Assembly (NCBI GenBank): GCA_041737385.1
Contig: JBGSRU010000002.1
Span: 333,437 to 397,436 of the forward strand
Length of the DNA stretch: 64,000 bases
DNA from: Candidatus Saccharimonadales bacterium
GTDB lineage: Bacteria > Patescibacteriota > Saccharimonadia > Saccharimonadales > SZUA-47
Direction of reading: 5' to 3'
Positions 6,229 through 56,603 of this stretch are shown piece by piece; the first letter of the stretch is position 1; every line of letters begins with the position of its first letter. The position numbers and the translations under genes are program-made. Under the pieces are notes generated by a model. That model was given only the letters and a program-made list of their open reading frames with translations, ran no database searches and was not told where the DNA came from.

Positions 6229-6255
6229 AGCATTATCATAGCGTATAGTGTGAGT

Positions 6256-6537
6256 ATGGACAAAAAATTTAAAAACCTAAAAGCTTGGATGTTTGAAGAC
6301 GATAAAGGAAACTTAACACTTGCTCAAAAGCCAAATCTACCAATTGTCATATGGGCAGTAGCTAGACTATTGCAGTTTGTCTTTACAAACGGGACATTCG
6401 CTACATTATTAGAGACGATATCTTTCGGTGCGTTATTTACGTGGGCGTGGCTTGAGTTGTTTAAAGGCGACACACCATTTAGGCGCATAGTAGGCTTCGT
6501 AGTTATTACTGCCACTATATATTCAAAGATACAATAG
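6256..6537 (+). CDS. small membrane protein, hypothetical
   Basis: Part of ORF 6214..6537. ATG 6256 (MDKKFKN…) has TATAGT 6 nt upstream. Two or three hydrophobic helices are visible. Confidence 0.45.
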   Translation: MDKKFKNLKAWMFEDDKGNLTLAQKPNLPIVIWAVARLLQFVFTNGTFATLLETISFGALFTWAWLELFKGDTPFRRIVGFVVITATIYSKIQ

Positions 6538-6554
6538 TATTGTAATAACATTTA

Positions 6555-6563
6555 TGTTATAAT
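6555..6563 (+). promoter_or_regulatory. extended -10 promoter (TGTTATAAT) placed 8 nt before ATG 6572
   Basis: Exact TGnTATAAT. The spacing predicts a leaderless transcript. Confidence 0.55.
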
Positions 6564-6571
6564 AAATATAT

Positions 6572-7081
6572 ATGGTTTCTGATAATTTATGTGAGGACGG
6601 CGCAAACGGTTTAGGCTGTCGTCTTGGTTTCTTGCTTGATAGTGATTTTACGTCACGAAATTCACCTAATAAGGTGAATTTTTCTTCTTTTACTAAAACC
6701 GAAACACTCGCTAAAAGTAGAAACAACGATTCTATTATCCGTGTCTTACAGGGAGAGTGGTCGGAGAGATTTCGCTTTATTACACACAGCATTGGTGGGT
6801 CTACCGTTGGAGTAGCTTTAGAAGAATTCAGGGGCGTCAAAACAGAAAGAGCATTAAGTATATTTACTAACCTTTCAGAAGCTGGTGCGGCATATGTAGA
6901 CATAGCAGCAACTCAACCCTACGCAGATTGCCCAATAGAAGAATACCGACTTCCTATTGATACAACGAAAGAGCTCCTAGAGGCTAGAGCAGTGATATGT
7001 CAGATGACTATTGAACTTGTAAATTCTGTTGACGGACCTTTAGCATTTGAAAGGGCATTACAGACTGCCGAGTGTTCTTAG
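6572..7081 (+). CDS. hypothetical protein (uncertain)
   Basis: 169-aa ORF with a leaderless-type promoter. A 126-aa ORF is open on the opposite strand (6523..6903), and the N-terminal half has odd composition. No motif recognised. Confidence 0.35.
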   Translation: MVSDNLCEDGANGLGCRLGFLLDSDFTSRNSPNKVNFSSFTKTETLAKSRNNDSIIRVLQGEWSERFRFITHSIGGSTVGVALEEFRGVKTERALSIFTNLSEAGAAYVDIAATQPYADCPIEEYRLPIDTTKELLEARAVICQMTIELVNSVDGPLAFERALQTAECS

Positions 7082-7101
7082 ATAAAAGTTTGCTATTATA
7101 G

Positions 7102-7683
7102 ATGTCAATGAGTAATAGCAATAATAACTGGATAGTCCTAGCCGGAGGACCTAACAGCGGCAAAACTACGTTAATTGATGAGCTAAGCAAACGTGGCTAT
7201 AAAGTGAAGCCAGAGCAAGCGATGGTAGTCATTAATGAATATTTAGCGAGTGGCGTAAAGCTGGAAAATGTCCACACAGATCCTGTGCTTGGCGGGCAAT
7301 TCCAGAGAGACATAGCGCTTAAAGAACTTGCTGCAGCAGCAGAATTCTCTCCAGACGAGCTCGTGTTTTTTGATAGATGGGCGCCTGATTATTTTGCTTT
7401 TGCAAAGATTAGAAACCTGAAAAAAGATGAAGAGATAATCAAAAAACTTGCAGACTGCTCATATAAACATATATTTGTACTCGATTTACTCAAAAACGAA
7501 TACGCCGATAATAAAATTGAAGCGCATCTAGCAGATCCTATAGCTGTCGCCATACAGCAAGAAGAGCATTTGATAGACGTCATAAACGATCTACATATGG
7601 AGTTCACACGCGTTCCAGTCATGAGCGTCGACGATAGAATTGAATATATTCTCGAAGCACTAAAAACCGCTGATACAAAATAG
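7102..7683 (+). CDS. P-loop ATPase (AAA_28/NadR-ATPase-like)
   Basis: Walker A GGPNSGKTT lies near the N-terminus, with hydrophobic-D (FVLD) as Walker B. The start could be ATG 7108, which is 8 nt after TGCTATTAT at 7091-7099. Confidence 0.65.
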   Translation: MSMSNSNNNWIVLAGGPNSGKTTLIDELSKRGYKVKPEQAMVVINEYLASGVKLENVHTDPVLGGQFQRDIALKELAAAAEFSPDELVFFDRWAPDYFAFAKIRNLKKDEEIIKKLADCSYKHIFVLDLLKNEYADNKIEAHLADPIAVAIQQEEHLIDVINDLHMEFTRVPVMSVDDRIEYILEALKTADTK

Positions 7684-7697
7684 TACCGGCGGTTTTT
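7662..7697. terminator. hairpin between convergent genes (AAAAACCGC … GCGGTTTTT)
   Basis: Perfect 9-bp inverted repeat at 7662-7670 / 7689-7697 with flanking A/T runs and an 18-nt loop. Confidence 0.45.
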
Positions 7698-7725
7698 ATC
7701 CTACAGTCTTGAGCTAACTATATGG

Positions 7726-8538
7726 TTAGTATATATAAGACCATTGGTTTGCAGGAACAGTACGGTTCGTGATTGCGTACAGTGCTTGATAGTTCATGTC
7801 TGTAATAGTAATAGTCCCATCACCGTTCACAGATTCAACGTAGGCTATGTGATTGCCTCGCTGTGCTGCTGCTCCAACACGCGGTTCTGAGCCGGTTGCT
7901 ATTCCTTGTGCTGCAGCACGTGCAACCCAAGTTCGCGCATTACCGAGATTGTTTGGAAGATCTGGGCGTCTACTTTTAACGTACCACGTACAGTAGCCGG
8001 CGACATAGCCATTACCGCTAGATGCGCCGCGCGCCGCTTGTACGGTTGGTGCTGCTTGTTGCGTAGTTCTTTTACTCGTTTTTGTTGTCTGAGCAGTGGT
8101 TGCTGGAGCAGGGGGTGCTGCTACAGGTTCAGCCGGCAACTCACGCGTCGCTACTACTTCTGCTACAGTCGGGATGACAAGCTCTGTTCCAACTTCAATT
8201 AAGTCTGGATTTTCAATACTAGTGTTTTTATCATATATTTTTTTCCACTCAAGTGAATATTGTTTCGCAATAATACTTAGGTTTTCCGATTCTTGAACCA
8301 TGTGTTTTGTTTCGACTGGTTCGACAGGTGTTTGCTCGACTACAGGCTCTGTTACGGCATCAGTTATTACAACTAGTGCCTTTGTAGACTCGGTAGATAA
8401 CAGTTTAACAACTGTATTGCTCGCTGTTTCTACATTATTTTGATTTGGTTGCTTTTGCTGGGCAATAGCACCAACTGAAGATGTTTGTGCCAAAATTAAG
8501 CCGCACAGTAATACACCCACTGGTAGGGTTAGACGCAT
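7726..8538 (-). CDS. secreted LysM + CHAP peptidoglycan hydrolase
   Basis: Signal peptide MRLTLPVGVLLCGLILAQ. LysM block (HMVQESENLSIIAKQYS…IEVGTELVIP) followed by a P/A/T linker. CHAP Cys (GYCTWYV) and His (GNHIAYVESV) are present. SD AAAGGAG. Confidence 0.85.
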   Translation of the reverse strand: MRLTLPVGVLLCGLILAQTSSVGAIAQQKQPNQNNVETASNTVVKLLSTESTKALVVITDAVTEPVVEQTPVEPVETKHMVQESENLSIIAKQYSLEWKKIYDKNTSIENPDLIEVGTELVIPTVAEVVATRELPAEPVAAPPAPATTAQTTKTSKRTTQQAAPTVQAARGASSGNGYVAGYCTWYVKSRRPDLPNNLGNARTWVARAAAQGIATGSEPRVGAAAQRGNHIAYVESVNGDGTITITDMNYQALYAITNRTVPANQWSYIY

Positions 8539-8919
8539 ATAGTTACTTTCTCCTTTTACTTATTGATGTGACCGTCATGGATTCGCATATCCTTGCTACA
8601 CGGTCTGCTGCACTCGCTAGTCTCCACTCACACGTAAAGATTGCAGTCTCACAATCCTACATAGCACACACTATGTTTGTCAATACATGCAGCCTGCCCG
8701 TGATTATGTAATGTTTTCACCTCTGTTGAAACAACCATAAATGTGATATTTCGCAAAGTAGTTTTTACAACATAATAACTACATATGGTGGTTCTTCATA
8801 TTTTCAAACCCTATAAAACATATGCTTATTGCGCTTATTTTGTAGTAAATAGCACAAAAAGCGAGGCTTACTAGCTTCATGAGTTAAGAAGCGATATACT
8901 ATACTCATTCGGAGGGAAC

Positions 8920-10341
8920 ATGAAGAGTATTAAGTCTGGTGCAGCATTGCGTGCAAAGTTATCAAAATATCTAAGCATATCGCGCGGTAAAAAAGCATTT
9001 AAGAATTTGCCAAAAAACACTAAGCTGTCTATGGCCCTTATATTGCTCCTCGTGCTTGTTGGATTTTGGGCAGTTTTATTTAACGAAAACACGACTCAAG
9101 AGATGGCTCAGAATGATGAAGAAACCGTCACAGAGCTAGAGACCGCGCCGGCAATGAAAGCGGTGCTTTCATTAACAGAAGGCGTCGTTGAAATCCGCTA
9201 TGATCAGAATGCTGATTGGCAAGATACTAAGCCTGATATGGCTGTTGATCCTGATGCAAACGTTAGAACCGTTGGAGCCAGTTCTAGAGCTATTATTAAG
9301 CTAGAAGATGGAAGCGAAATTCGTATAGACGCAAACACCGAGATCGTTTTTGAGTCTTTGACTGAGTCACGTATTGTCGTGGCGCAAAAGACTGGCTATC
9401 TGTATAACAGAATTACAGCATCAACAAAAAGAATTTATGGGGTGCATACAACTAATGCCCAATTTCAAGCTGTCGGAACAGCTTTTCGTACGATAGCTAA
9501 CGGAGACGAAGAAGCTGTAGAAGTGTATCAAAACTCTGTCAAGGAAACGAGTATTAATCTCAGTGCTTCTGAGGGTGAAAAGCTTACAATTAAAAATCCA
9601 GCGAAGCCAAGCGTAGAAAAAACGAAAGAAAAGCTATCAATTCAGCTACTTAAAGATGATGAGTTTATCGTATGGAACAGAGAGCTTGACAAGAAAAACC
9701 CTGATTTCTCGTCTAGCCTAGGGTTCCTAAGTGATTTTGATGGTCCTACTATAGATATAGCTGATCCAGCAGCCGGAAGTACTATTCAAATAGAAACAGA
9801 GGCCAGCGAAGGCACTGTAAACATTAAAGGCAAAACAGAAGCTCGGGCTTCACTTACCGTAGAATCAAAATCACAGAACGGTAGTAGTCCTGTGGCGGTT
9901 AGTGTTAACCCTGACGGCAGCTTTGAGACAGGCAGCATTACAGCGCCGGTAGGGAACTCGGTATTTGAGTTTGTCGCTAAAGACCGAGTAGGGAACGAAT
10001 CAAAACTAAATATCACCTACACTTTTGCACGAAAAGCGACCGTACAAGAACAGGCGTTATTATTTAGCGTCACTAGCTCAGATAAAAAACTTAACTTTGA
10101 GTGGCAACTTGTTGGGCTGACTGCTCCAGAAGGACTTAAAATTATTGGATCACAAACTAATAATCCTAAACTTGGTAGCGATAAAACCTATGCTACAGTC
10201 ACTTCAGGGACTGCTATTTCAGTCGATATCGATAAAGATTTTAAGAGTGGTAAAACCTATTATTTCAGACTTTGTCGATATATAAGTAGTACTGATACAT
10301 GCGACGAATACAGCAACGAAGTTTCGATAAAAATCCCATAG
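8920..10341 (+). CDS. membrane-anchored FecR-domain / Ig-like repeat surface protein
   Basis: SD GGAGGG and an N-terminal TM. FecR-like segment (RTVGASSRAIIKLEDGSEIRIDANTEIVFESL) and beta-rich C-terminal domains. Confidence 0.5.
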   Translation: MKSIKSGAALRAKLSKYLSISRGKKAFKNLPKNTKLSMALILLLVLVGFWAVLFNENTTQEMAQNDEETVTELETAPAMKAVLSLTEGVVEIRYDQNADWQDTKPDMAVDPDANVRTVGASSRAIIKLEDGSEIRIDANTEIVFESLTESRIVVAQKTGYLYNRITASTKRIYGVHTTNAQFQAVGTAFRTIANGDEEAVEVYQNSVKETSINLSASEGEKLTIKNPAKPSVEKTKEKLSIQLLKDDEFIVWNRELDKKNPDFSSSLGFLSDFDGPTIDIADPAAGSTIQIETEASEGTVNIKGKTEARASLTVESKSQNGSSPVAVSVNPDGSFETGSITAPVGNSVFEFVAKDRVGNESKLNITYTFARKATVQEQALLFSVTSSDKKLNFEWQLVGLTAPEGLKIIGSQTNNPKLGSDKTYATVTSGTAISVDIDKDFKSGKTYYFRLCRYISSTDTCDEYSNEVSIKIP

Positions 10342-12889: not shown

Positions 12890-15082
12890 TTATCCAAAAA
12901 GTGAAGTCAACAAGCTTCGTCTAGAATAACTTTGTGTGCTACCTACCTCAGCACCAAAAGCTTCCTCTTCGCCGTGTGCAGGCTGGTCAGTCGCATTGAT
13001 TGGCTTGGGGAATTTTAAGAATTTTGGACCGAGCTTATCTGCTACGCCAAGTATTTGAGCCCACACAAAACCTTCTGCGAGTGGGCGTGCATGAATTGGT
13101 AAAATCTGTTTTTTAGCTTCCTCAATACCATACTCATCAAGCGGGAAAGACACTACGTTCGCCATGTTACCAGGAGGTAGTAGCATGCCACCCTGAATAC
13201 CTGCTATTAAGGCAATCGATGGGTTATTCTCAGTAAACTTGAATCCTTCACGAACACCAACGAGGTTGTCGGCAACACTGCTAAATCCTGCGATCCCTAC
13301 ATATTTACCAAAGTCGTTAATGAGGTCTTTAACTATTTTGTTTGGTATTTTATCTGTTAATTCGTCAAACTTTCCGACAAGTTCTTTGAACACAGGGCTT
13401 ACAAATATCATACTCATACTCTGGAAAGGGAAGACATCTAAAACATCAGTAAAGCTATGACCAAGTGCTCGTTGCATTCTAGTCACATCTGTAACACGCC
13501 TATAAACCGCTACCGGGTTCCATTTACTCGTTACATCTCCGCCGAATCCAAGCTCTGCTTCAATCTCATCACTCACTTCTTTAGCGCTTACAGCAAAAAT
13601 CCTTGCAGTCGTAGCATCTAAGTTGTGCGACTCCATCCAATTAGTCAATCCTTCAAAGTCATCTGCAGCAACAAAATTCTTTATTTCTCTTTGCATCTCT
13701 ATTCTGTCATAACTATGTTGATCTGAGCGATCGGGTAAATTAGCAAGAACACCTGATATAAACTGGTCATAACGATGAAAATCTTCAATTCTTGATCCTT
13801 CTTCTTCATGACCGTGTGATTCAATGTGATCCTTCAAAAGCAAGTCTTTAAAACCGTCCACTTTATCAGAAAAAGCACCCAAAACATCATGTCGCATACC
13901 ATTTTTATCTTGCTCTTTTCCAAGAATAGGAAGTACAAGATTTTTTACTGACCTTCCCATTACACCTTTAACAAATCCTAGGTTACGACCTAGTGCTTCA
14001 CGGGATAGTTTACCTGCATCTTTTTCTTCGCCCTCGATAGCACCTATTTTTATCAACTCTTTAGTAATCATTTTGTTTGTGTACTCTAAAGAACGTAGCG
14101 CAGGAACCATACCTACTGACAAAGACTGCCATAATAATCCTATGCCACCAAAACGTTCTAGGGTCGCAATAAACGGTGGATCACCAAAGAAAGGGAAGCC
14201 TGCTTTATCTGAAATATGGCTTTGTAGAAGTGCTTTGATGTGACCAATTGATTCTTGTGTTGCAGGATCTTCAGAGGCAGTACTCTCTCCAGCTATAGAA
14301 GATAACGTATCTTCAACCATTTGGTCCGCAAATGATTGTGCTTGTTTGACAATTGTTGAGGCTTCTTTTGTGGTCATTCCTGAAGCTCCTACAGTAGTCA
14401 CCATAGGGGCTAAGACTGATGCAAGCTCTGTCACAATTGCAACTCGGTCTTGAAGTACTAAGTCTTTTCGTGCTGTTATCTCTTTATATATTGTTTCAAC
14501 ATCCAACATCATTCCTTCAGCGACCACAACCGTTCCTTCGATAATTGCAGTAAATTTAAGTGTTGCAGCTAGTTCCTCATCAATATGATGCAAGGTCTCT
14601 TCATCACCTTCTTTTCTGGCATTATGACGTTTTAACCCAATTAAAACAGCCTGCGAATAATAGTGTCCCTGAGTAATTGTTCTTCCAGAAGATAATTCTT
14701 TAATACCGTGAGCGAACACGCCTGTTCCTATATAGTCTAATTTATCCGGACCGTGCTCTAGATGTTCGCCCTCTTCTTCATTTTCTAGACCTTCTAACAT
14801 CTCGTCTAGAAAATCGCTCATTTCTGAATCAAGGCTTTCAATTTCTCGAATTGCTTCTAACTCTTCAGGGGTCAATTGTACTTCATCGCGGCTTTGCCCA
14901 AGCGGGTCTTCAAGGAAGAAGTCTGCTACTACGTCAAGACCTCTACCGGCCTGATGTCCAGCGTCACCTGAATATACGATTGCAGCTCCTAGGCCAGCCG
15001 CAGCGATTCCACCTTTAATTATTGCATCTCTTCTTGACATTTCTGGATTCAAATGAGGATCCGTTTCTTGCGTGTGTGCCAT
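12890..15082 (-). CDS. large orphan protein with Tat-like N-terminal signal
   Basis: ORF 12890..15139. ATG 15082 is preceded by SD GGGAG. The N-terminus MAHTQETDPHLNPEMSRRDAIIKGGIAAAGLGAAIV resembles S-R-R-x-x-x-K plus an h-region. The remainder is acidic and unrecognised. Confidence 0.6.
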   Translation of the reverse strand: MAHTQETDPHLNPEMSRRDAIIKGGIAAAGLGAAIVYSGDAGHQAGRGLDVVADFFLEDPLGQSRDEVQLTPEELEAIREIESLDSEMSDFLDEMLEGLENEEEGEHLEHGPDKLDYIGTGVFAHGIKELSSGRTITQGHYYSQAVLIGLKRHNARKEGDEETLHHIDEELAATLKFTAIIEGTVVVAEGMMLDVETIYKEITARKDLVLQDRVAIVTELASVLAPMVTTVGASGMTTKEASTIVKQAQSFADQMVEDTLSSIAGESTASEDPATQESIGHIKALLQSHISDKAGFPFFGDPPFIATLERFGGIGLLWQSLSVGMVPALRSLEYTNKMITKELIKIGAIEGEEKDAGKLSREALGRNLGFVKGVMGRSVKNLVLPILGKEQDKNGMRHDVLGAFSDKVDGFKDLLLKDHIESHGHEEEGSRIEDFHRYDQFISGVLANLPDRSDQHSYDRIEMQREIKNFVAADDFEGLTNWMESHNLDATTARIFAVSAKEVSDEIEAELGFGGDVTSKWNPVAVYRRVTDVTRMQRALGHSFTDVLDVFPFQSMSMIFVSPVFKELVGKFDELTDKIPNKIVKDLINDFGKYVGIAGFSSVADNLVGVREGFKFTENNPSIALIAGIQGGMLLPPGNMANVVSFPLDEYGIEEAKKQILPIHARPLAEGFVWAQILGVADKLGPKFLKFPKPINATDQPAHGEEEAFGAEVGSTQSYSRRSLLTSLFG

Positions 15083-15149
15083 TTTACTCCCACGAAAAGC
15101 TAGCGCTTTAATCGTATTTTTTTGATTATTTGTCAACAACTCTTTATCG

Positions 15150-15168
15150 AAATGTATTATATATCACA
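15150..15168 (-). promoter_or_regulatory. second copy of the 19-nt upstream motif
   Basis: AAATGTATTATATATCACA is identical to 12822-12840. It lies upstream of the 730-aa orphan. Confidence 0.55.
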
Positions 15169-15346
15169 AAAATTTGAGGTCAAGGGTGTAAGCAACTTTT
15201 CGAGATATGCCTTGATGTAAAGTATGTCGACAAAGCCATAACCGGTATTGTATCCACGCAAATTTTTTTTTGCTAACTTTATATAAAACGATTGTATATG
15301 CTTGCGAAGATAAGAACATCTAAAAATCGTCCATTATGATTAATTG

Positions 15347-15355
15347 TGATATAAT
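15347..15355 (+). promoter_or_regulatory. extended -10 promoter TGATATAAT, about 150 nt upstream of alr
   Basis: Exact TGnTATAAT on the plus strand in the 368-nt spacer. Confidence 0.45.
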
Positions 15356-15507
15356 TCACATAAATAGTTAAGAATTCAAGTCTAACCTAATACAATGTAT
15401 AGATTTTCCGTAACCCTAAAATCACGCAAAGATACTATTTTGTGTTGCCCAGGCCCAGTACAGTTGCGCAAGTCAGCTGTATGCATCCCTAATAAAATCG
15501 TAACTAT

Positions 15508-16656
15508 ATGAGTAAGAAATCTATCGGGCTAGAAGCCCAAATACACAGTTTAGTTTGGGCAGAGGTTGACCTTCAAAAGTTGCGAAATAATTTTTTGCAA
15601 TTACGTAAGTTTGTAAATGATAAAACTAAGTTTTTAGCTGTTGTTAAGGCTAATGCGTATGGTCATGGAATTCAACGTATATCCAAAGAGTTAGAGAAGC
15701 TAGGCGTTGATTACCTTGGTGTTTCGAATCTCAATGAAGCTGTGACGATAAGAAGATGTGGAGTAATGACTCCAATTCTTGTGTTTGGATATGTATGCCC
15801 AGAGGATATTGGTATTGCAGTAGATAATCACATCACACTTACGGTATGTGAAGATACCATGCTTAGTGCTGTTGCTTCTTACGCAACCAAAACCGATAAA
15901 ACTGTGCCAGTCCACATACAGATTGATACTGGCCTTCGCATGTACGGCGTTGATTATAGGGAAGTTGGATCATTTATAAATAAAGTCCTGCACCATTCTA
16001 ATATCTATGTAGAAGGGGTTTATAGCCATTTTACTAACTCAGAGGACAAAGATACTATACTTTCTTTTGAGCAGCTAGATCTTTTCAATAATGCATTGAA
16101 GGAAATCATCAGTTATGGGGTTAACCCTCCCTATATTCATATTGCAAATGGAGCTGCAGTTATAAATATTCCTGAATCGCACTATACGATGGTAAGAACA
16201 GGAACGTTTTTATATGGCAACCAGACAAAAGGACAAAATCCTAAATTTAAGCCAGAGCAGATCATGACATTAAAAACAAAAGTTGTTCATAAATCACAAT
16301 TAAGTCCCAGTGACCAAGTGGGTTATGAGAAATCATTTATAACGTCAGGAATTAAAGAAATCGCATGCTTACCAATTGGTTACGGTGATGGATTTAGGCA
16401 AAAACCTCATTGGGAATATGTTTTAATCAATGGTCAGCAAGCCCCTGTTATAAATGGTGTCAGCATGGATAAAACAGCTGTTGATATATCAAAAATTAAA
16501 AATGTGGAAATTGGAAGCGAAGTGGTTTTGCTGGGAACACAAAAAGAGACAATAACAATAAATCAAGTTGCACAGATGCTGAATGCAGCTAACTATGAAA
16601 TTCTCTCCGGATTAACTAGCAGGGTTAAGAGAATTTATTTAAACGAAACATTATGA
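15508..16656 (+). CDS. alr: alanine racemase
   Basis: PLP-Lys motif AVVKANAYGHG, central HIANGAA, and C-terminal GVSMDKTAVDI block. The length of 382 aa fits. Confidence 0.9.
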   Translation: MSKKSIGLEAQIHSLVWAEVDLQKLRNNFLQLRKFVNDKTKFLAVVKANAYGHGIQRISKELEKLGVDYLGVSNLNEAVTIRRCGVMTPILVFGYVCPEDIGIAVDNHITLTVCEDTMLSAVASYATKTDKTVPVHIQIDTGLRMYGVDYREVGSFINKVLHHSNIYVEGVYSHFTNSEDKDTILSFEQLDLFNNALKEIISYGVNPPYIHIANGAAVINIPESHYTMVRTGTFLYGNQTKGQNPKFKPEQIMTLKTKVVHKSQLSPSDQVGYEKSFITSGIKEIACLPIGYGDGFRQKPHWEYVLINGQQAPVINGVSMDKTAVDISKIKNVEIGSEVVLLGTQKETITINQVAQMLNAANYEILSGLTSRVKRIYLNETL

Positions 16657-18215
16657 AACAATTAATAAATACTAAACCACAGATACATACCCCTCAGCTA
16701 GAAATTGAGTTGCTTTCTGAGTTACGCGAAAAAGCATTTGCGCGTCGCCCCCAGCTGGAAGAGATCATCAACGCCTCACGAGATATGACACTTTTTGATT
16801 TCTCAAAAATGTATAATGTTCCATACTCACAAAATATTAATGCAACCCTGAAGCTACAATTCATTGATACATTTGCCAAAGAAGTGGAACGATTACTTGG
16901 CATTGAAGTAGCAGCCAGCTGTGCTCGTCAACTAGCAACAACCTATAGAGTTACGACGACTGACCATCATGGACCAATAAGCGAACCCGGTATGGTAAAC
17001 AGCAATATTCATGAAGCACTACCATATTTAAATGGAGACGAAACTATAAAAAACATTATTGTGCTTGGTTGTGCGAATGTCTCTTTTGACAACGAATCGT
17101 TTCCGCGAGGATTGTTATTTCACGTTCCTAGTGCTATTGATGCAGAATGTAAACAACTTGTATTTTTCTCCCGTTCAGTACGAGCTAAGCCTGTTATATA
17201 TCACCCATCATACGATCATGAAAACCTAACTAATGCAAAGAAATTACTTGCTAACTGGCAGATAGAAAAATCCATTAGTGAAAACGAGAAGAATAAAGTT
17301 GAAAAAATTCTTGATGACATATATGCCGAACCTTCTGTGATGCAGTGTACCAATTTTTCAGAACAAGTAACTAAAACGAACTACAGCCTTTGGGCTATGC
17401 TTATGAAGCATTATGAAAATGCACCAAAGCTTGTATATATCGAGCAAGAAAACATTGTTAATTTGCTTTTATTAAACTACCATCTAGACCAAGATACAAT
17501 CATCCATAGATTGTTATTTACACCCAAATACCACGAACTTATAATTAAACACTTCAACGGCATCGATAAGTGCTTTTCACTTCAAGAAAATAAGGGAACT
17601 TATCTATTCTGGGCACTGCCAAATGGACAAAAATATCGTGTACAGCTCTGGAAAAAAGGAAACTTTCTCACAACTGATGATGGTAGCTACCAGGTTCCAT
17701 TGACTCCTGAAGGCATTAGAAATGCGATCAATAATAAAGAGCTAATTCCTAGCACACTTATGTCGTTCACTCTTTTGTCTTTTTATTACGGTGTGAAACT
17801 CACAGGTGGGACTAACCAAACTACATATCTTAATCAGATGAAAGAGGCATTTATAAATATGCAAAATGAGTATGGAGATACAGAGAGTGCAAAGTTTGCT
17901 CGCAAAGTACCCACAAAAGAGCTGTCTGTGGCTCTGCACAATCTAGCATTTCTAGAAAACATATGGGGCAACCATTTACCTGCAACTTGTATAGATATTA
18001 TCCTTTATGGTGACAAAAACACGATGTCTAGCTTAAAAGAAGAAGCGCAAAAATTAACACTTAACGAAGTTTTTGAATGGGCTTTACCCGATCTTTATAG
18101 CTGGTACTATAGTGCAGCCGAGAGAAGTCCGCTATTATCAAACATTTCTAAGGCACAGATTAGAGACTATCTTGGTATAGACGAAAAAATAATTCCCATT
18201 GCCATACCTAGTTAA
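16653..18215 (+). CDS. orphan 520-aa protein translationally coupled to alr
   Basis: ATGA start/stop overlap with alr. There are no P-loop, ATP-grasp or TM features that I can see. Confidence 0.6.
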   Translation: MKQLINTKPQIHTPQLEIELLSELREKAFARRPQLEEIINASRDMTLFDFSKMYNVPYSQNINATLKLQFIDTFAKEVERLLGIEVAASCARQLATTYRVTTTDHHGPISEPGMVNSNIHEALPYLNGDETIKNIIVLGCANVSFDNESFPRGLLFHVPSAIDAECKQLVFFSRSVRAKPVIYHPSYDHENLTNAKKLLANWQIEKSISENEKNKVEKILDDIYAEPSVMQCTNFSEQVTKTNYSLWAMLMKHYENAPKLVYIEQENIVNLLLLNYHLDQDTIIHRLLFTPKYHELIIKHFNGIDKCFSLQENKGTYLFWALPNGQKYRVQLWKKGNFLTTDDGSYQVPLTPEGIRNAINNKELIPSTLMSFTLLSFYYGVKLTGGTNQTTYLNQMKEAFINMQNEYGDTESAKFARKVPTKELSVALHNLAFLENIWGNHLPATCIDIILYGDKNTMSSLKEEAQKLTLNEVFEWALPDLYSWYYSAAERSPLLSNISKAQIRDYLGIDEKIIPIAIPS

Positions 18216-18228
18216 AAAACTGAAATGG

Positions 18229-18654
18229 CTATCTTCGGTTGCGGCGTTTTAGTTCGGCTATTTTGAGTCGAGACGATTGCCTGTCGACAAGCATCTGAGC
18301 TTTGTCGAGAGATACTTGGTCTCTTGCTTCAGATCGTAGTTGCTTTGCGCGTTCTAGTGCAGCTTCCGCTTCTTTGGCGCTGACTTCTGAATCTTTGTCG
18401 GCAATATCAACCAATACCCGTACAGTGTTGTCAGTTATTTCAATTACTCCGCTATCAATCGCATAATACTCTTGTAGATCATCCGGTGTGTTGTTGTTCT
18501 TTCGAACCGTGATAATACCCGTCACAGCAGTCGAAACGAGCGGAGCGTGTCCTGCAAACACCGCAATAATTCCTTGTGGGGTAGGGAGCTTGACTTCGTA
18601 GATAGATTCTCGAAGCTTTACGCCGGTTAGGGTAACAAGTTCAAAATGGATCAT
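18229..18654 (-). CDS. atpC: F1 ATP synthase epsilon subunit
   Basis: MIHFELVTLTGVK…AGHAPLVS beta-sandwich pattern plus a C-terminal helical hairpin. It is the last gene of the atp cluster. Confidence 0.85.
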   Translation of the reverse strand: MIHFELVTLTGVKLRESIYEVKLPTPQGIIAVFAGHAPLVSTAVTGIITVRKNNNTPDDLQEYYAIDSGVIEITDNTVRVLVDIADKDSEVSAKEAEAALERAKQLRSEARDQVSLDKAQMLVDRQSSRLKIAELKRRNRR

Positions 18655-18658
18655 AGTA

Positions 18659-19378
18659 TTAGATCGTCCATTCCGACGTGCCTGCTTCTGCTATGTCTGA
18701 AATATGGGTGGGGGGGTCTTGGCTAGCTTCATTTGCATGTAGTCGCAGAGCCGTACTTTCTTGTGCTTGGTTGTATGTAGTGTTCGATAGTGCACTAAAG
18801 TCTTCAATCGTATCTTTTGTACCAGCTTGGATGGGTATATCAGACCCTGAACCTATTCGTGTCTCACTACTTGAGCCTCGTGTCGGCACTGCATATCTTG
18901 CAGACGCAAAATCAATGATTGTTGAACCTAGCTCATCTCCAGCAACAACAGTCATTGCGTGAGCTTTTGTCCATTCTACTGCTCCAAAAGCAGACAGTAG
19001 GCCAAATCCACGCTTCGGTTTTTCTGATGGAAATTTCTCTGGACGGTGCAACTTTCTAGCAGCTTCTTCTGCAACAAGCTTAGTAAGCGCGACAGTGTCA
19101 GATGCTGCATTTCTTACCCTATCTGAACCAGTTGCGCCAGTTACTGGATCAGTAGCTAGTAAATCGAACGTCGCATGTGCTTTTTCAACACCAGATTGAA
19201 CCTTTTTTGCTCCGCCCCAAGCAGCTAGCAATCCTAATGAACCAACAGTTAGTGGCGCTATGAGCGCAACTTCTAGTGTCTTTTTTGAAGCTCTATCAAG
19301 TCTTGCTCCAATAGATTCTAAATGATCACCATCATGCCCGACATGATTCGCTCCAGAACTATGTGCATGCACACTCAT
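18659..19378 (-). CDS. orphan 239-aa protein inserted between atpD and atpC
   Basis: Starts 2 nt after the atpD stop and ends 4 nt before the atpC start. It has a His-rich N-terminus (MSVHAHSSGANHVGHDGDH) and one hydrophobic segment (ALIAPLTVGSLGLLAAWGGA). Confidence 0.55.
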   Translation of the reverse strand: MSVHAHSSGANHVGHDGDHLESIGARLDRASKKTLEVALIAPLTVGSLGLLAAWGGAKKVQSGVEKAHATFDLLATDPVTGATGSDRVRNAASDTVALTKLVAEEAARKLHRPEKFPSEKPKRGFGLLSAFGAVEWTKAHAMTVVAGDELGSTIIDFASARYAVPTRGSSSETRIGSGSDIPIQAGTKDTIEDFSALSNTTYNQAQESTALRLHANEASQDPPTHISDIAEAGTSEWTI

Positions 19379-19380
19379 TG

Positions 19381-20823
<1,443 letters not shown>

Positions 20824-20865
20824 TCATTAATTTCGTTTGCAATAGATTCTTCTGTCGCTGCCTTA

Positions 20866-21810
20866 TCATGACATTGCCTCCGCTCCACCGACGATTTCTG
20901 CGAGTTCTTGGGTGATGGCTGATTGGCGGGCGCTGTTAGCAGCTAGTGTCAGGTCATCTATCAGATCACCAGCGTTGTCAGAAGCAGTTTTCATGGCTAA
21001 CATACGTGAACTTTGCTCTGAGGCTTGGCTCTCTAAGTAAGCTTGCCATAACTGTACATCGACTAAACGATCAGCAATAGTATCAAGCACGACTTGTGGA
21101 CTTGGTTCAAACAATGCCAGCTCTAGATCTGCTGAGACTTTTGTGTCTGTAAATGCAGCAGGTAAGAGTCGTTGTTTGGTTACTTCTTGGACAACACTCG
21201 ACTTAAAATCAGTGAACAATATGTCTACAGCATCTGTTTGGGGGATTATTTCTGCAACTATATTTTTTGCATAAGGGTTCTTAATAGTGCTTTCGTCTTC
21301 ATTCTTAACGATTATTTCTTTACCAACGAACTGTTCTTTTACAGTGCTGAGGATTGCAATCAGATCATTGATAGTTGGTCGTTCTGGCATAGAGTCGTAA
21401 CTAGCAAGCACGTGTATATCTGAGATTTTTCCAACAAACTTCGCTGCTTGTTTACCAATAGTGATGATTTTGGTTTCAATATTGTTCTCAATATCAGCTT
21501 TAAGTTCTTTTGTTAACTGACGAAGAACGTTAGAGTTATATGCTCCAGCCAATCCTCGGTCTGAGGTAATGACTATGAGAATTCGACTTTTTACCTCGCG
21601 AGTAACGAAAAGTGGATGCTTCGAGACATCAGTAAGCTCACGCAAACGAGTCAATATCTGGCGGGCTGTATGTACATATGCGCGTGACGCTACCGTTGTT
21701 TCTTGAGCACGGCGCATTTTACTGGCAGCAACCAGCTCCATAGCCTTGGTGATCTGCTTGGTATTCTTGACGCTCTTGATGCGCGCTTTGATCTGCTGTG
21801 TACTAGCCAT
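20866..21810 (-). CDS. atpG: F1 ATP synthase gamma subunit
   Basis: N-terminal IKARIKSVKNTKQITKAMELVAASKMR and C-terminal ITQELAEIVGGAEA signatures. Confidence 0.9.
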   Translation of the reverse strand: MASTQQIKARIKSVKNTKQITKAMELVAASKMRRAQETTVASRAYVHTARQILTRLRELTDVSKHPLFVTREVKSRILIVITSDRGLAGAYNSNVLRQLTKELKADIENNIETKIITIGKQAAKFVGKISDIHVLASYDSMPERPTINDLIAILSTVKEQFVGKEIIVKNEDESTIKNPYAKNIVAEIIPQTDAVDILFTDFKSSVVQEVTKQRLLPAAFTDTKVSADLELALFEPSPQVVLDTIADRLVDVQLWQAYLESQASEQSSRMLAMKTASDNAGDLIDDLTLAANSARQSAITQELAEIVGGAEAMS

Positions 21811-22183
21811 TATTGACTCCTCTCAATGCGGCAAACGCAAGATGAGAAGTTTTATTACGAAGCCGGAAAACGTCTCCTACAAGTACTTCATCCTCGCCAC
21901 GATCACGTAGCTGACGAGCTGCCCATACATCAAAATCAACGAGTATTGGTTGCTCAGTATCATCCTCAGCAGGAGTTACTACTTTGAAATCGTACGTTGA
22001 TATTCCCGTATTTGGATCGATAGCAGTTTGCGTTCTTACGAAGTTCGGTGGTAGCTGATAAGGGATAAACGCAAAGGCATAGCCTTCATTGATAGCTGTT
22101 GGTGTTTCGGTAGCCTCTATGCGAATAGCCTCCGATACAAATCCTTCAGCAAACGTTTCTAAACTTTCATATGTTTGAGCCAT
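21803..22183 (-). CDS. orphan 126-aa protein inside the atp operon
   Basis: SD AAGGTGA. Its 3' end overlaps the atpG start by 8 nt. No motif recognised. Confidence 0.55.
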   Translation of the reverse strand: MAQTYESLETFAEGFVSEAIRIEATETPTAINEGYAFAFIPYQLPPNFVRTQTAIDPNTGISTYDFKVVTPAEDDTEQPILVDFDVWAARQLRDRGEDEVLVGDVFRLRNKTSHLAFAALRGVNNG

Positions 22184-22224
22184 AAACTAATTCACCTTGC
22201 CCATTATTAACGATTTATACACGA

Positions 22225-22482
22225 TCACGCGAATCCACCCTGAGGAGACCATTCATTAATAAACTGCGGTGGTACAGGAAGTAACTGCTCTCTAGTATCT
22301 ACTAAATGATCTCCTCTATGCATAGCTGACTGAAGTCCGCATAGCGCCGCTCTTCTCGCAACAGCCAAGTCTTCACCGGTCAGAGTGCTTAGTCCAGTAA
22401 CGACATCAGCTTCAACACCCAAGCCTTTAGCGACTTCGGCGATTAGTTGTTCTGGTGTTGGGTAGGGCTGTGCATCTGACAT
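22225..22482 (-). CDS. orphan 85-aa protein inside the atp operon
   Basis: Starts 1 nt after the atpA stop, with a GAGGAAA SD inside the atpA 3' end. No motif recognised. Confidence 0.5.
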   Translation of the reverse strand: MSDAQPYPTPEQLIAEVAKGLGVEADVVTGLSTLTGEDLAVARRAALCGLQSAMHRGDHLVDTREQLLPVPPQFINEWSPQGGFA

Positions 22483-22483
22483 A

Positions 22484-24022
22484 TTATTTTTCCTCTGCGT
22501 ATTCTTTCGCTACTTTTTCAGCTTGGTCAGTGATGATTTTGGTCATTGTGTCTTCAACTTTGCCGCCTTCGTTTAACTTCGCCATATCCTTTTTCTTCTC
22601 GCTACTTAGCTGAGAGAGCAAGGCGTGTTGAGCTTTCTTGATCTGTGCAACTGGCACGCTGTCAAATGAACCACTTGTTGCAGCGATCAGACTTGCGACT
22701 TGCTCCCATACTGATAGCGGTGAGTACTGTGGTTGTTTTAGTAGTTCAGTTAGTCGTTGACCACGTTCGATACGTGATTTTGTATCTGCGTCTAGATCTG
22801 AGCTGAACTGTGCGAATGCTGCAAGTTCACGGAACTGAGCTAGGTTGATACGTAGTGAGCCAGCTGCGCCTTTCAAGGCCTTAGTCTGGGCAGCACCACC
22901 AACACGTGATACCGATAGACCAACTGAGATAGCCGGACGGATACCTTGGTTGAACAAGCTCGTTTCCATGAAAATCTGACCGTCAGTGATCGAGATCACG
23001 TTGGTCGGGACGAATGCTGATATATCTCCAGCTTGCGTTTCTACAATAGGTAGGGCAGTTAGTGAACCGCCACCTTCAGCGTCAGATAGTTTGGCCGCAC
23101 GCTCGAGTAGTCGTGAGTGTAGGTAGAACACGTCACCTGGGTAAGCTTCGCGTCCCGGTGGGCGACGGAGTAGAAGTGACATCTGGCGGTAGGCCACAGC
23201 GTGCTTTGAAAGGTCGTCATAGGTAATTAATGCGTGCTGACCATTGTCTCGGTAGAATTCACCCATAGCTGCACCCGCGTACGGCGCGAGGTATTGCATT
23301 GAAGCCGGATCAGAAGCTGAAGTCGCCACTACAATAGTCTGGTCCATCACACCTTCGCGCTCAAGTCGCTCAACCATTCGTGCAACCTTGGACATCTTTT
23401 GACCAATCGCTACATAAATATTGATCACGCCTGTGTTTTGCTTGGCTTGGTTAATCATAGTGTCTACCGCAACGGCTGTTTTACCAGTTTGGCGGTCACC
23501 GATGATCAGCTCACGCTGACCACGACCGATTGGGACCATAGCGTCAATTGCCATCAGTCCAGTCATCATAGGTTCGTGGACAGATTTACGAGCAAGCACA
23601 CCAGGAGCAGGTCGTTCTACGAGTCCAGTTAGCTTTGTTTTGATAGGACCCTTGTCGTCAAGTGGTCGTCCAAGTGGATCAACAACGCGACCTTGCAGCT
23701 CAGGGCCGATAGGGACCTCTAGGACTGAACCAGATAGTTTGACCTTGGCGCCGGCTTTCACCTTGGTATCTGAATCTAGCAATACAGCTCCGATTTCGTC
23801 TTCCATGAGGTTGAGGGCAAATGCACTGACTGAACCGCCGTCGGCTGATTCGATTTCTAACATTTCTGAATAACCTGCAGCAGATAGTCCGTAAATCCAT
23901 GCCACACCGTCACCGATACGGGTGACGATTCCTGATTTTTCAACGTTTCCGCTGGTTTTTAGTGCTTGAATGGCGCTTCTTACTTCTGCGGCCAGTTCTG
24001 CTGTTGATACTTGTGTACTCAT
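22484..24022 (-). CDS. atpA: F1 ATP synthase alpha subunit
   Basis: Walker A GDRQTGKT and alpha-type blocks ([23 protein letters not shown]). Confidence 0.95.
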
Positions 24023-42922: not shown

Positions 42923-43008
42923 GCCGCGGTGGCGGAATTGGTATACGCGCACGACTCAAAATCGTGTTCCTTAACGGATTGAGGGTTCAAGTCCCTCCCG
43001 CGGCACCA
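42923..43008 (+). tRNA. tRNA-Leu (anticodon CAA), CCA encoded
   Basis: Hand-folded cloverleaf. Acceptor GCCGCGG/CCGCGGC. Anticodon stem CACGA/TCGTG with loop CTCAAAA. Long variable arm. T-arm GAGGG-TTCAAGT-CCCTC. Confidence 0.9.
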
Positions 43009-56528: not shown

Positions 56529-56603
56529 GGTCCCATCGTCTAACGGTTAGGACACTAGATTCTCAATCTAGCAATACGAGTTCGATTCTCGTTGGGATCA
56601 CCA
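56529..56603 (+). tRNA. tRNA-Glu (anticodon CUC), CCA encoded
   Basis: Hand-folded. Acceptor GGTCCCA/TGGGATC. Anticodon stem CTAGA/TCTAG with loop TTCTCAA. T-arm ACGAG-TTCGATT-CTCGT. 75 nt. Confidence 0.9.

What the first reader, a model, noticed from the sequence alone, without database searches (positions are those of the whole stretch)
16653..18215. 520-aa orphan start/stop-coupled to alanine racemase
The ORF's ATG overlaps the alr stop (ATGA), implying co-translation with the D-Ala-producing enzyme. I see no P-loop, ATP-grasp, Mur-ligase, TM or signal features. The two-gene unit sits behind an unusually long 368-nt AT-rich spacer and looks more AT-rich than the flanking atp operon by eye. 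It is a candidate for a new D-alanine-utilising or cell-wall-related function, or a horizontally acquired module.
Basis: partly seen in the sequence, partly recalled or inferred. Interest (0 to 1): 0.55.

Follow-up and report, generated by a model that had tools for sequence, protein, structure and literature searches.

The report
BshC-like enzyme coupled to alanine racemase
The "orphan" gene overlapping alanine racemase belongs to a large, unnamed enzyme family of the ultra-small CPR bacteria that folds like the cysteine-adding enzyme BshC and is repeatedly linked or fused to D-amino-acid-making enzymes and peptide ligases, so it probably attaches D-amino acids to an unknown acceptor.

Summary
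A 520-aa ORF (16653-18215, +) starts in an ATGA overlap with the stop of a genuine alanine racemase gene (15508-16656), behind a 368-nt AT-rich divergent spacer.

It is not an orphan. It has 842 cluster representatives (50% identity) across Patescibacteria/CPR, all unannotated, with no Pfam, NCBIfam or PDB sequence match. Two high-confidence AlphaFold models (pLDDT about 92) match only BshC (bacillithiol cysteine-adding enzyme; Foldseek prob 1.0) and class I lysyl-tRNA synthetase. Canonical HIGH and KMSKS motifs and BshC's own motifs are absent.

The alr link is limited to the closest clade. Across 81 loci, however, the family sits beside alanine racemase, DapF/CntK-like racemases, Asp-type racemases or class IV aminotransferases in 27 loci: 28 of 303 nearby genes versus 1 of 559 distant ones. 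Ddl or ATP-grasp ligases are adjacent in 10 more. Natural fusions exist to a racemase and to two ATP-grasp types.

Best reading: a new BshC-fold amino-acid-adding enzyme family that uses D-amino acids, D-Ala in this window. The acceptor and the chemistry are unproven. The AT-richness is mild, and horizontal transfer is not supported.

The parts
15140..15507 (.). 368-nt AT-rich (GC 0.33) divergent intergenic region between the 749-aa gene on the - strand and alr. It holds promoter-like sites for both directions (+ strand 15368-15396 TTAAGA-17-TACAAT; - strand 15183-15156 TTGACC-16-TATAAT).
   Evidence: No Rfam family at E<=1. The number of promoter-like sites is not above the shuffled expectation, so the sites are only candidates.
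15508..16656 (+). alr, a PLP-dependent alanine racemase (382 aa) and the presumed D-alanine supplier.
   Evidence: Pfam Ala_racemase_N and Ala_racemase_C. NCBIfam TIGR00492 equivalog 315.9 bits (cut-off 168). PLP-Lys motif VVKANAYGHG at residue 45.
16653..16656 (+). ATGA start/stop overlap, which suggests translational coupling of alr and X.
   Evidence: The same ATGA overlap occurs in L009; the gaps are 2 nt in L011 and 4 nt in L013.
16653..18215 (+). X, a 520-aa member of an unannotated CPR-wide family with a BshC / class-I-aaRS-like Rossmann fold. It is the predicted D-amino-acid-adding enzyme.
16956..16976 (+). Family motif T-x-D-H-H-G-P (aa 102-108; T102, H105 and P108 invariant). It lies right after the first Rossmann strand (99-103) and before helix 112-125, the position that HIGH occupies in class I synthetases. 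In a non-significant greedy alignment it lines up with BshC's invariant GGQQxG.
   Evidence: Alignment A1, model secondary structure, motif coordinates, hhalign.
17070..17114 (+). Family motif C-A-N-V-S-F-D-N-x-S-F-P-R-G-L (aa 140-154; S144, N147 and R152 invariant) after the second strand. It is collinear with BshC's WxAGEDHD.
17778..17843 (+). Family motif SFYYGxKxxGGxNQxxYLxxMK (aa 376-397; Y378, Y379, G380, G385, Q389, L393 and K397 invariant) after strand 382-385. It is the one segment that hhalign pairs with BshC's invariant AGPGExxYWxELKxAF.

Best explanation
alr and X form a translationally coupled two-gene unit. Alr racemises L-Ala to D-Ala. X uses that D-amino acid as a substrate.

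X belongs to a large, previously unannotated family found across Patescibacteria/CPR. Its fold is that of BshC and class I aminoacyl-tRNA synthetases, a Rossmann-type (HUP) catalytic core with connective insertions. By analogy with BshC and MshC, which join the carboxyl of cysteine to a sugar amine, X most likely catalyses a nucleotide-dependent 'amino-acid-adding' (amide- or ester-forming) reaction that puts D-Ala on an acceptor.

In other lineages the partner racemase differs, so the amino acid probably differs too. X often works with, or is fused to, ATP-grasp peptide ligases, which would add further residues. The product is probably a D-amino-acid-containing peptide or pseudopeptide of the cell envelope, or a small peptide metabolite.

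Shown:
- gene structure and the ATGA overlap;
- conservation of the family;
- fold similarity to BshC and class I LysRS;
- neighbourhood and fusion statistics.

Inferred:
- that X is catalytic;
- that a D-amino acid is its substrate;
- the ligase chemistry, its energy source and the acceptor.
For: 1. Family. There are 842 representatives at E<=1e-3. Members are 500-560 aa and come from Saccharimonadia, Levybacteria, Peregrinibacteria/Peribacteria, Gracilibacteria, Kerfeldbacteria, Magasanikbacteria and Parcubacteria. There are 31 invariant, mostly polar or aromatic positions grouped in discrete motifs, which is typical of an enzyme.

2. Fold. Two models (pLDDT 91.8 and 92.6) built on different members each hit only BshC 4wbd (E 9.6e-6 and 8.1e-7, prob 1.00, TM 0.43 over about 530 columns) and class I LysRS 1irx (prob 0.98-1.00). 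The invariant motifs follow Rossmann strands 1, 2 and 4. The greedy profile alignment is collinear with BshC.

3. Context in 81 loci.
- Alr is directly upstream in 4 loci, with one more nearby.
- A DapF-fold racemase closest to the histidine racemases CntK/HisR is next to X in 8 loci, directly downstream on the same strand in 7 of them.
- An Asp-type racemase is adjacent in 3 loci and two genes away in a fourth.
- A class IV aminotransferase is adjacent or near in about 11.
- Ddl is adjacent in 2, ATP-grasp ligases in 6 and PurD-like ATP-grasp in 2.
- An M15 D-Ala-D-Ala carboxypeptidase is present in 3, and a PBP2-like gene is convergent in 8.
- Racemase/aminotransferase genes make up 28 of 303 genes within +-2 of X and 1 of 559 farther away in the same loci (Fisher p 1.6e-12). 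ATP-grasp/Ddl genes are 10 of 303 against 1 of 559 (p 2e-4).
- DapF-like and Asp-racemase partners are scattered over several X clades, so the linkage arose repeatedly.

4. Fusions.
- P0125 is X plus a CntK-like racemase, 44% identical to the stand-alone neighbours.
- P0182, P0206 and P0230 are X plus a cyanophycin-synthetase/GshB-like ATP-grasp, 50% identical to the upstream neighbour in L053 and L075.
- P0178 is X plus a RimK-type ATP-grasp, 40% identical to the downstream neighbour in L054.
- In L094 the racemase fusion follows a GCS2 carboxylate-amine ligase and an L-amino-acid-ligase-type ATP-grasp on the same strand.

5. The window. The alr-X junction stays tight (ATGA, or gaps of 2-4 nt) in four genomes whose outer neighbours differ.
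Against: - No biochemical data exist for any member.
- Canonical HIGH, KMSKS and Walker motifs are absent, so ATP-dependent adenylation is not assured. BshC's own reaction has never been reconstituted in vitro (PMC5790435).
- Sequence-profile similarity to BshC is not significant (E 0.14-0.21).
- 44 of 81 loci show no D-amino-acid or ligase neighbour. Some conserved neighbours are unrelated housekeeping genes (UDG, SpoU, RlmI-like methyltransferase, NDK, M16 peptidase).
- The class IV aminotransferase cannot be told apart from a branched-chain aminotransferase; all NCBIfam hits are below their cut-offs.
- The loci are not phylogenetically independent, so the Fisher p-values overstate significance.
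- The 64-kb window holds no ddl, ATP-grasp, PBP or other racemase gene.
- The acceptor is entirely unknown.
Confidence: 0.55

Rival explanations
1. X acts on tRNA or RNA. It could be a derived class I synthetase that charges a tRNA with a D-amino acid for a Fem/MprF-type transferase, or an RNA-modification factor, rather than a tRNA-independent ligase.
For: Class I LysRS is the second-best and only other structural match (prob 0.98-1.00). RNA-modification genes recur near X in some lineages: SpoU methylase, RlmI-like methyltransferase, a predicted Dus-like gene (by sequence only) and a MiaB-like radical SAM gene (RlmN-like by sequence only). Established knowledge (PMC2922099): synthetase paralogs can feed aminoacyl-tRNA to peptidoglycan cross-bridge ligases.
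Against: HIGH and KMSKS are absent. No synthetase or anticodon-binding Pfam domain appears in 36 members even at E<=10, apart from a single Anticodon_2 hit at E 1.1. BshC, which is not known to use tRNA, is the better match. The RNA-modification neighbours are mostly on the opposite strand and confined to single lineages, so they look like inherited synteny. No Fem/MprF-type gene recurs, and no tRNA gene lies next to X in the window.
Confidence: 0.12
2. X is a functional equivalent of BshC. It would be a cysteine-adding (or other L-amino-acid-adding) enzyme for a low-molecular-weight thiol or glutathione-like peptide in CPR bacteria, with the D-amino-acid links being secondary.
For: BshC is the top structural match. 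Some partners belong to thiol-peptide chemistry: a GCS2 glutamate-cysteine-ligase-family gene in L094, the fused ATP-grasp resembling the GshB part of GshAB (E 3e-35), and the Asp-type racemase scoring above the cut-off of the cysteate racemase model.
Against: There is no BshC Pfam or NCBIfam match, and BshC's invariant motifs are replaced. No BshA-like glycosyltransferase or BshB-like deacetylase was recognised among the recurrent neighbours that were annotated; clusters c32 and c105 and most singletons remain unassigned. In the window and its clade the coupled gene is alanine racemase, not a cysteine-related gene. Direct fusion to a racemase argues that the racemised amino acid is what X uses.
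Confidence: 0.1
3. The alr-X overlap in this window is incidental gene packing in a compact CPR genome. X would have a function unrelated to D-alanine, enzymatic or structural.
For: alr is adjacent in only 1 of 79 species-representative genomes (L013), plus one at 1.3 kb (L023). The close relatives L014 (56%) and L015 (53%) lack it. More than half of the loci show no informative neighbour. Overlapping unrelated genes are common in small genomes (general knowledge).
Against: The junction is conserved in four genomes with different outer contexts. Three other non-homologous D-amino-acid-related enzyme types take the same adjacent position elsewhere, and one of them is physically fused to X. The enrichment is about 57-fold over distant genes in the same loci.
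Confidence: 0.1
4. alr-X is a recently acquired horizontal module, which would explain its AT-richness.
For: GC is 0.365-0.373 against a window gene mean of 0.421, and the pair is flanked by GC-richer atp genes.
Against: The deviation is only z -1.2 to -1.5 (GC3 z -0.75 to -1.3), and at least five other window genes are lower. The same MIP / alr / X / atpC neighbourhood occurs in L009, whose X is only 53% identical, so the arrangement is old and inherited vertically. No mobile-element gene was seen in the flanks that were annotated.
Confidence: 0.03

Closest known systems
BshC (bacillithiol biosynthesis cysteine-adding enzyme; PDB 4wbd; Pfam PF10079)
   Same: It is the best and reproducible structural match over nearly the full length, about 530 of 520-540 residues, with prob 1.00. 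The size is similar. Both have a Rossmann core with insertions and a helical C-terminal part. Conserved motifs fall at collinear positions after the Rossmann strands. Both lack canonical HIGH and KMSKS motifs. BshC attaches an amino acid (Cys) to an amine acceptor (GlcN-malate), which is the kind of reaction proposed for X.
   Different: There is no significant sequence or profile similarity. BshC's invariant GGQQxGLxxGPLY, WxAGEDHD and AGPGExxYWxELK are replaced by TxDHHGP, CANVSFDNxSFPRG and GGxNQxxYLxxMK. The taxonomic range differs: CPR for X, while every BshC homolog retrieved here was from Bacillaceae. The context is racemases and ATP-grasp ligases, not bshA/bshB. TM-score is only 0.43, with large rmsd from domain orientation.
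Class I lysyl-tRNA synthetase (PDB 1irx) and class I aaRS-like tRNA-independent ligases such as MshC
   Same: It is the second structural match (prob 0.98-1.00). The Rossmann (HUP) catalytic fold carries a conserved His-containing loop right after strand 1. MshC sets the precedent that this fold can adenylate an amino acid and transfer it to a sugar amine without tRNA (PMC2922099).
   Different: There is no HIGH, KMSKS or synthetase Pfam domain, and no recognisable anticodon-binding domain. Sequence identity is about 10%.
Racemase plus ATP-grasp D-amino-acid ligase pairs of peptidoglycan synthesis (Alr/Ddl; aspartate racemase with D-aspartate ligase for cross-bridges)
   Same: The operon logic is the same: a racemase gene coupled to the ligase that consumes the D-amino acid. 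ATP-grasp ligases make D-Ala-D-Ala and D-amino-acid cross-links (PMC2922099). Ddl, an M15 DD-carboxypeptidase and PBP2 genes occur next to X.
   Different: X has no ATP-grasp domain and an unrelated fold. In several cases X occurs together with, or fused to, an ATP-grasp enzyme, which suggests a complementary step rather than the same one.
MetRS-paralog / ATP-grasp peptide-metabolite systems predicted by Aravind et al. 2010 (PMC2922099)
   Same: A class-I-synthetase-fold protein is predicted from context to act as a peptide ligase alongside ATP-grasp ligases and amino-acid-modifying enzymes.
   Different: Those proteins are recognisable MetRS paralogs with cupin and lysine N6-monooxygenase partners. 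X is far more derived, is found in CPR genomes, and is tied to racemases.

Membership tests
BshC family (PF10079 / NCBIfam BshC) | Significant match to the family profile | tested here: not met
   X has no Pfam or NCBIfam hit at E<=1, and none of 36 members hits at E<=10. hhalign of the X profile against a 21-sequence BshC profile gives E 0.21. Genuine BshC proteins carry PF10079 and PF24850.
BshC family (PF10079 / NCBIfam BshC) | BshC three-dimensional architecture (Rossmann core with connective insertions plus a helical C-terminal region) | tested here: met
BshC family (PF10079 / NCBIfam BshC) | Invariant BshC motifs GGQQxGLxxGPLY, WxAGEDHD, SNNVxxRPxMQE and AGPGExxYWxELK | tested here: not met
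   The motifs come from A2. X has different invariant motifs at collinear positions. Only the Y-[LW]-x-x-[ML]-K-x-A-[FY] core is shared.
BshC family (PF10079 / NCBIfam BshC) | Co-occurrence or linkage with bshA (GT4 glycosyltransferase) and bshB (deacetylase) | tested here: inconclusive
   No such gene was recognised among the neighbour clusters that were annotated in 81 loci. Clusters c32 and c105 and most singleton neighbours remain unassigned, and genome-wide co-occurrence could not be tested.
Class I aminoacyl-tRNA synthetases (LysRS-I type) | HIGH and KMSKS signature motifs | tested here: not met
   A regex scan finds no H[ILVM]GH, H.GH or KMS[KS]S. A single invariant His (H105) sits at the HIGH position.
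Class I aminoacyl-tRNA synthetases (LysRS-I type) | Rossmann-fold catalytic domain of the class I type | tested here: met
   1irx chains hit with prob 0.98-1.00 and TM 0.35-0.38 over 450-470 columns. CYT-18 TyrRS is a weak third hit.
Class I aminoacyl-tRNA synthetases (LysRS-I type) | Anticodon-binding domain and tRNA aminoacylation | not testable with these tools
   There is no synthetase or anticodon Pfam domain. tRNA binding needs experiment.
ATP-grasp D-amino-acid ligases (Ddl / D-Asp ligase type) | ATP-grasp domain | tested here: not met
   X has no ATP-grasp Pfam hit. ATP-grasp domains occur only as separate neighbours or as C-terminal fusion partners.
Alanine racemase (the upstream gene, 15508-16656) | Equivalog-level profile match and PLP-binding lysine motif | tested here: met
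   TIGR00492 scores 315.9 bits (cut-off 168). Ala_racemase_N and Ala_racemase_C match. VVKANAYGHG lies at residue 45.

The most novel reading that the evidence does not exclude
The X family is a third, previously unrecognised class of D-amino-acid ligase, BshC/HUP-fold rather than ATP-grasp or Mur-type. Together with its fused or adjacent ATP-grasp, GCS2 and racemase partners, it would build a CPR-specific D-amino-acid-containing structure. This could be unusual peptidoglycan cross-bridges or stem modifications whose amino acid varies by lineage (D-Ala, D-His-like, D-Asp-like), or a cyanophycin/glutathione-like peptide. Because X is the only known structural relative of BshC with clear partner enzymes, it could also show what kind of activated donor or helper protein the still-unreconstituted BshC reaction needs.
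Probability: 0.2. Interest if true: 0.85.

Novelty: new variant of a known kind. Interest (0 to 1): 0.62.

Why it matters
CPR/Patescibacteria make up a large share of bacterial diversity, live as epibionts with minimal metabolism, and are rich in conserved proteins of unknown function. This family is widespread there: 842 clusters at 50% identity and no database annotation. The evidence gives a testable hypothesis, namely a BshC-fold enzyme that consumes D-amino acids made by its racemase partner.

If that holds, three things follow:
- it would add a new enzyme class to D-amino-acid and cell-envelope biochemistry;
- it would help explain how CPR cell walls or peptide metabolites are built, which bears on host attachment and on antibiotic targets in oral Saccharibacteria;
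- it would provide a handle on the unsolved mechanism of BshC, which is itself a proposed drug target in Staphylococcus and Bacillus.

Tried and rejected
- Sequence-based annotation of X found nothing. This covered Pfam, NCBIfam, PDB phmmer, a profile hmmsearch against the PDB, and Pfam scans of 36 members at E<=10.
- hhalign of the X profile against BshC, both as a single sequence and as a 21-sequence profile, gave E 0.14-0.21, which is not significant. Global mode degenerated. The greedy local alignment is collinear but is only illustrative.
- The BshC structure paper (PMC4303302) is not held. Statements about BshC's ligand sites are therefore not used as evidence.
- alr linkage as a family-wide property is rejected. 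Only 1 of 79 representative genomes has it adjacent, plus 1 nearby.
- A riboswitch or leader RNA in the 368-nt spacer is rejected: there is no Rfam hit at E<=1. Promoter-like sites are not above the shuffled expectation.
- A horizontal-transfer island is rejected on composition and synteny.
- The search for ddl, ATP-grasp, PBP or other racemase genes inside the 64-kb window found none.
- Literature searches for BshC with Patescibacteria, BshC-like/DUF2317, and Saccharibacteria alr/peptidoglycan found no description of this family.
- The L066 DAO-family fragment upstream of X is N-terminally truncated and is not counted as evidence.
- Neighbour clusters c32 (about 340 aa) and c105 (about 460 aa) and the L039 444-aa neighbour remain unassigned.
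Full report
**1. Observation**

- The ORF listing and the raw sequence show a 520-aa ORF at 16653..18215 (+).
- Its ATG overlaps the TGA of the preceding 382-aa ORF (15508..16656) in the tetranucleotide ATGA.
- The upstream ORF is a true alanine racemase. Pfam Ala_racemase_N and Ala_racemase_C both match. NCBIfam TIGR00492 scores 315.9 bits against a cut-off of 168. The PLP-lysine motif VVKANAYGHG is present.
- The spacer 15140-15507 is 368 nt with GC 0.33. It separates alr from a divergently transcribed 749-aa gene. It has no Rfam match at E<=1 and no more promoter-like sites than shuffled sequence.
- X has no Walker A, HIGH, KMSKS, TM or signal feature.
- alr (GC 0.365) and X (0.373) are more AT-rich than the adjacent atp genes. 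Against 55 window genes (mean 0.421, sd 0.039) they are only z = -1.45 and -1.24, and several other genes are lower.
The compositional peculiarity is weak.

**2. Not an orphan**

- The word-indexed search found 187 homologs, all 'hypothetical' and all without precomputed Pfam domains.
- The exhaustive HMMER search of 1.84 billion representatives found 842 at E<=1e-3 and 260 at E<=1e-30.
- Species-representative genomes carrying the family are labelled Saccharimonadales, Levybacteria, Peregrinibacteria/Peribacteria, Gracilibacteria, Kerfeldbacteria, Magasanikbacteria, Parcubacteria and 'Patescibacteria group'.
- A 36-sequence alignment (36-61% identity to X) has 31 invariant columns grouped in motifs:
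  - TxDHHGP (aa 102-108)
  - CANVSFDNxSFPRGL (140-154)
  - SEQxTKTN (236-243)
  - YxEQE (262-266)
  - GTYLFWA (315-321)
  - SFYYGxKxxGGxNQxxYLxxMK (376-397)
  - T421 and D448
- Pfam and NCBIfam have no model for the family. Scanning all 36 members at E<=10 also gives nothing consistent.

**3. Fold**

- AlphaFold2 on alignment A1 gave a confident model (pLDDT 91.8, pTM 0.91).
- Foldseek against the PDB returned exactly two meaningful hits: BshC of Bacillus subtilis (4wbd; E 9.6e-6, prob 1.00, 530 columns, TM 0.43) and class I lysyl-tRNA synthetase (1irx; prob 0.98). A weak third hit was the TyrRS CYT-18.
- A second model, built with a Peregrinibacteria member (P0050, 41% identical) as target (pLDDT 92.6), reproduced this: BshC at E 8.1e-7 and LysRS-I at E 1.9e-3, both prob 1.00, and nothing else.
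- In the model the invariant motifs sit right after the parallel strands: strand 99-103 then DHHGP then helix 112-125; strand 134-139 then CANVSFDN; strand 382-385 then GGxNQ. Class I synthetase-type Rossmann folds place their nucleotide- and substrate-binding loops at these positions (fold knowledge).
- I obtained the BshC sequence from memory, and the PDB search confirmed it as identical to 4wbd_A. I then built a 21-sequence BshC profile.
- Profile-profile comparison is not significant (E 0.14-0.21). It does pair X 382-404 with BshC's invariant AGPGExxYWxELKxAF. With greedy extension it gives a collinear alignment in which VSTaDHHGPxxhP falls on VVGGQQAGLLTGP and CANVSFDN falls on WVAGEDHD.
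- Conclusion: X shares the BshC/class I synthetase architecture but fails sequence-level membership of both families.

**4. Genomic context**

- In close relatives (52-62% identity) the alr-X pair is conserved with an ATGA overlap or a 2-4 nt gap, while the outer neighbours differ: L006/L013, L009 and L011.
- L009 also keeps the MIP / alr / X / atpC neighbourhood of the window, which argues against recent acquisition.
- Beyond that clade alr is not linked. Of 79 species-level loci, only L013 has it adjacent and L023 has it at 1.3 kb. The relatives at 56% and 53% identity, L014 and L015, lack it.
- I called ORFs in 81 loci, clustered them, and annotated the recurrent neighbours:
  - a class IV aminotransferase (Pfam Aminotran_4; BCAT versus D-amino-acid transaminase not resolved), adjacent or near in about 11 loci;
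  - a DapF-fold PLP-independent racemase whose best models are the histidine racemases CntK/HisR, next to X in 8 loci and directly downstream on the same strand in 7 of them;
  - alanine racemase in 4 loci, plus 1 nearby;
  - an Asp/Glu-family racemase (TIGR00035, above cut-off), adjacent in 3 loci and two genes away in a fourth;
  - Ddl in 2;
  - ATP-grasp ligases of three types in 6;
  - PurD-like ATP-grasp in 2;
  - an M15 D-Ala-D-Ala carboxypeptidase in 3;
  - a convergent PBP2-type transpeptidase in 8;
  - a DedA/VTT membrane protein in 6.
- Racemase/aminotransferase genes are 28 of 303 genes within two positions of X, against 1 of 559 farther away in the same loci (Fisher p 1.6e-12). ATP-grasp/Ddl genes are 10 of 303 against 1 of 559 (p 2e-4). 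In all, 37 of 81 loci have one or the other.
- The loci are not independent. However, on a neighbour-joining tree of X the DapF-like and Asp-racemase partners are scattered over several clades, so the linkage arose more than once.
- Other conserved neighbours (UDG and SpoU in Levybacteria/Saccharimonadia; RlmI-like methyltransferase, NDK and M16 peptidase in Peribacteria) look like lineage synteny.

**5. Fusions**

Five representatives of 845-942 aa carry X at the N-terminus.

- The C-terminus of P0125 is a CntK-like racemase. It is 44% identical to the stand-alone neighbours and has a precomputed Pfam CntK_N hit.
- P0182, P0206 and P0230 carry a module about 50% identical to the gene directly upstream of X in the Magasanikbacteria loci L053 and L075. 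NCBIfam relates this module to the ATP-grasp parts of cyanophycin synthetase and GshAB.
- P0178 carries a RimK-type ATP-grasp that is 40% identical to the downstream neighbour in L054.
- In L094 the racemase fusion is the third gene of a same-strand cluster, after a GCS2 carboxylate-amine ligase and an ATP-grasp with an L-amino-acid-ligase C-domain.
- These fusions are the strongest evidence that X acts in one pathway with a racemase and with amide-forming ligases.

**6. Interpretation**

- The most economical reading: X is an enzyme of the BshC/class-I-synthetase fold that takes the D-amino acid produced by its partner (D-Ala in this window) and adds it to an acceptor. ATP-grasp ligases often perform neighbouring steps.
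- The precedents are MshC and BshC, which join cysteine to a glucosamine amine, and the synthetase-paralog peptide ligases predicted by Aravind et al. (PMC2922099).
- What is not shown: catalysis, the energy source, the amino-acid specificity and the acceptor. The canonical ATP motifs are missing, and BshC's own reaction has never been reconstituted (PMC5790435).
- The cell-wall flavour of several neighbours (Ddl, M15, PBP2, DedA) makes a peptidoglycan or envelope product plausible. The GCS2 and GshB-like partners equally allow a soluble peptide.
- Rivals are a tRNA-linked role, a BshC-equivalent thiol pathway, incidental packing and horizontal transfer. They are listed with their evidence, and none fits the racemase fusions as well.

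**7. Novelty and verdict**

- I found no description of the family in Pfam, NCBIfam, the PDB or the searchable literature.
- It is a new, very divergent branch of a known kind (HUP/class-I-synthetase-fold amino-acid-adding enzymes), with a new and well-supported link to D-amino acids.
Its 'orphan' and 'horizontal module' ideas are wrong. Its D-alanine-utilisation idea is supported by independent comparative evidence, though it is unproven biochemically.

Noticed in passing
window 12890-15139 (-): A 749-aa ORF is divergent from alr across the spacer and has no Pfam or NCBIfam match. Its N-terminus (SRRDAIIKGGIAAAGLGAA) resembles a twin-arginine export signal. The same gene precedes alr in the Logan copy of the contig.
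   Followed up: partly
window 18229-24022 (-), especially 18659-19378: The F-type ATP synthase operon is interrupted by unannotated ORFs. A 239-aa ORF with no Pfam hit lies between atpC (epsilon) and atpD (beta). The relative L009 has a 120-aa ORF at the same position and a 23S_rRNA_IVP gene between beta and gamma.
   Followed up: partly
L020, L052, L059, L062, L068, L070, L072, L081 (about 6000-9000 in each): Tandem paralogs of X are common, with three copies in L052. A short paralog clade (437-492 aa; L068_5, L070_6, L079_14, L091_5) always lies directly upstream of the class IV aminotransferase. This suggests subfunctionalised specificities or a heteromer.
   Followed up: partly
L094 126-5511: A same-strand cluster runs GCS2 carboxylate-amine ligase, then an ATP-grasp with an L-amino-acid-ligase C-domain, then the X::CntK-like racemase fusion (P0125). 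It looks like a compact peptide-building operon.
   Followed up: partly
L066 5285-5927: A fragment of a DAO-family FAD oxidoreductase lies directly upstream of X. It is N-terminally truncated (profile positions 144-352 only) and carries a D-amino-acid-oxidase-like HNYGHGGSG signature. It is possibly a pseudogene.
   Followed up: partly
L044 about 7500-8100; L053 and L075 downstream of X: Nudix hydrolase genes directly follow X on the same strand in two lineages, which hints at a nucleotide-linked substrate or by-product.
   Followed up: no
locus table (e.g. L013, L015, L018, L023): Many genome records that carry this CPR-type family are titled 'uncultured Gammaproteobacteria bacterium', and others Lysobacterales or Limnocylindrales. 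These are probably placeholder or wrong taxonomic labels on Patescibacteria MAGs.
   Followed up: no
window 42245-42895, 52119-52745, 57422-58096, 61863-62363: Four genes have GC of 0.32-0.34 (z below -2), which is more AT-rich than alr-X. The last 8 kb of the window is generally AT-rich. Two tRNA genes lie at 42923-43005 and 56529-56600.
   Followed up: no
L042, L077 (downstream of X): A complete PurD-like (GARS_N/A/C) ATP-grasp gene directly follows X. If these genomes lack the rest of purine synthesis, as is usual for CPR (general knowledge, not checked here), it may be a repurposed amino-acid:aminosugar-type ligase.
   Followed up: no
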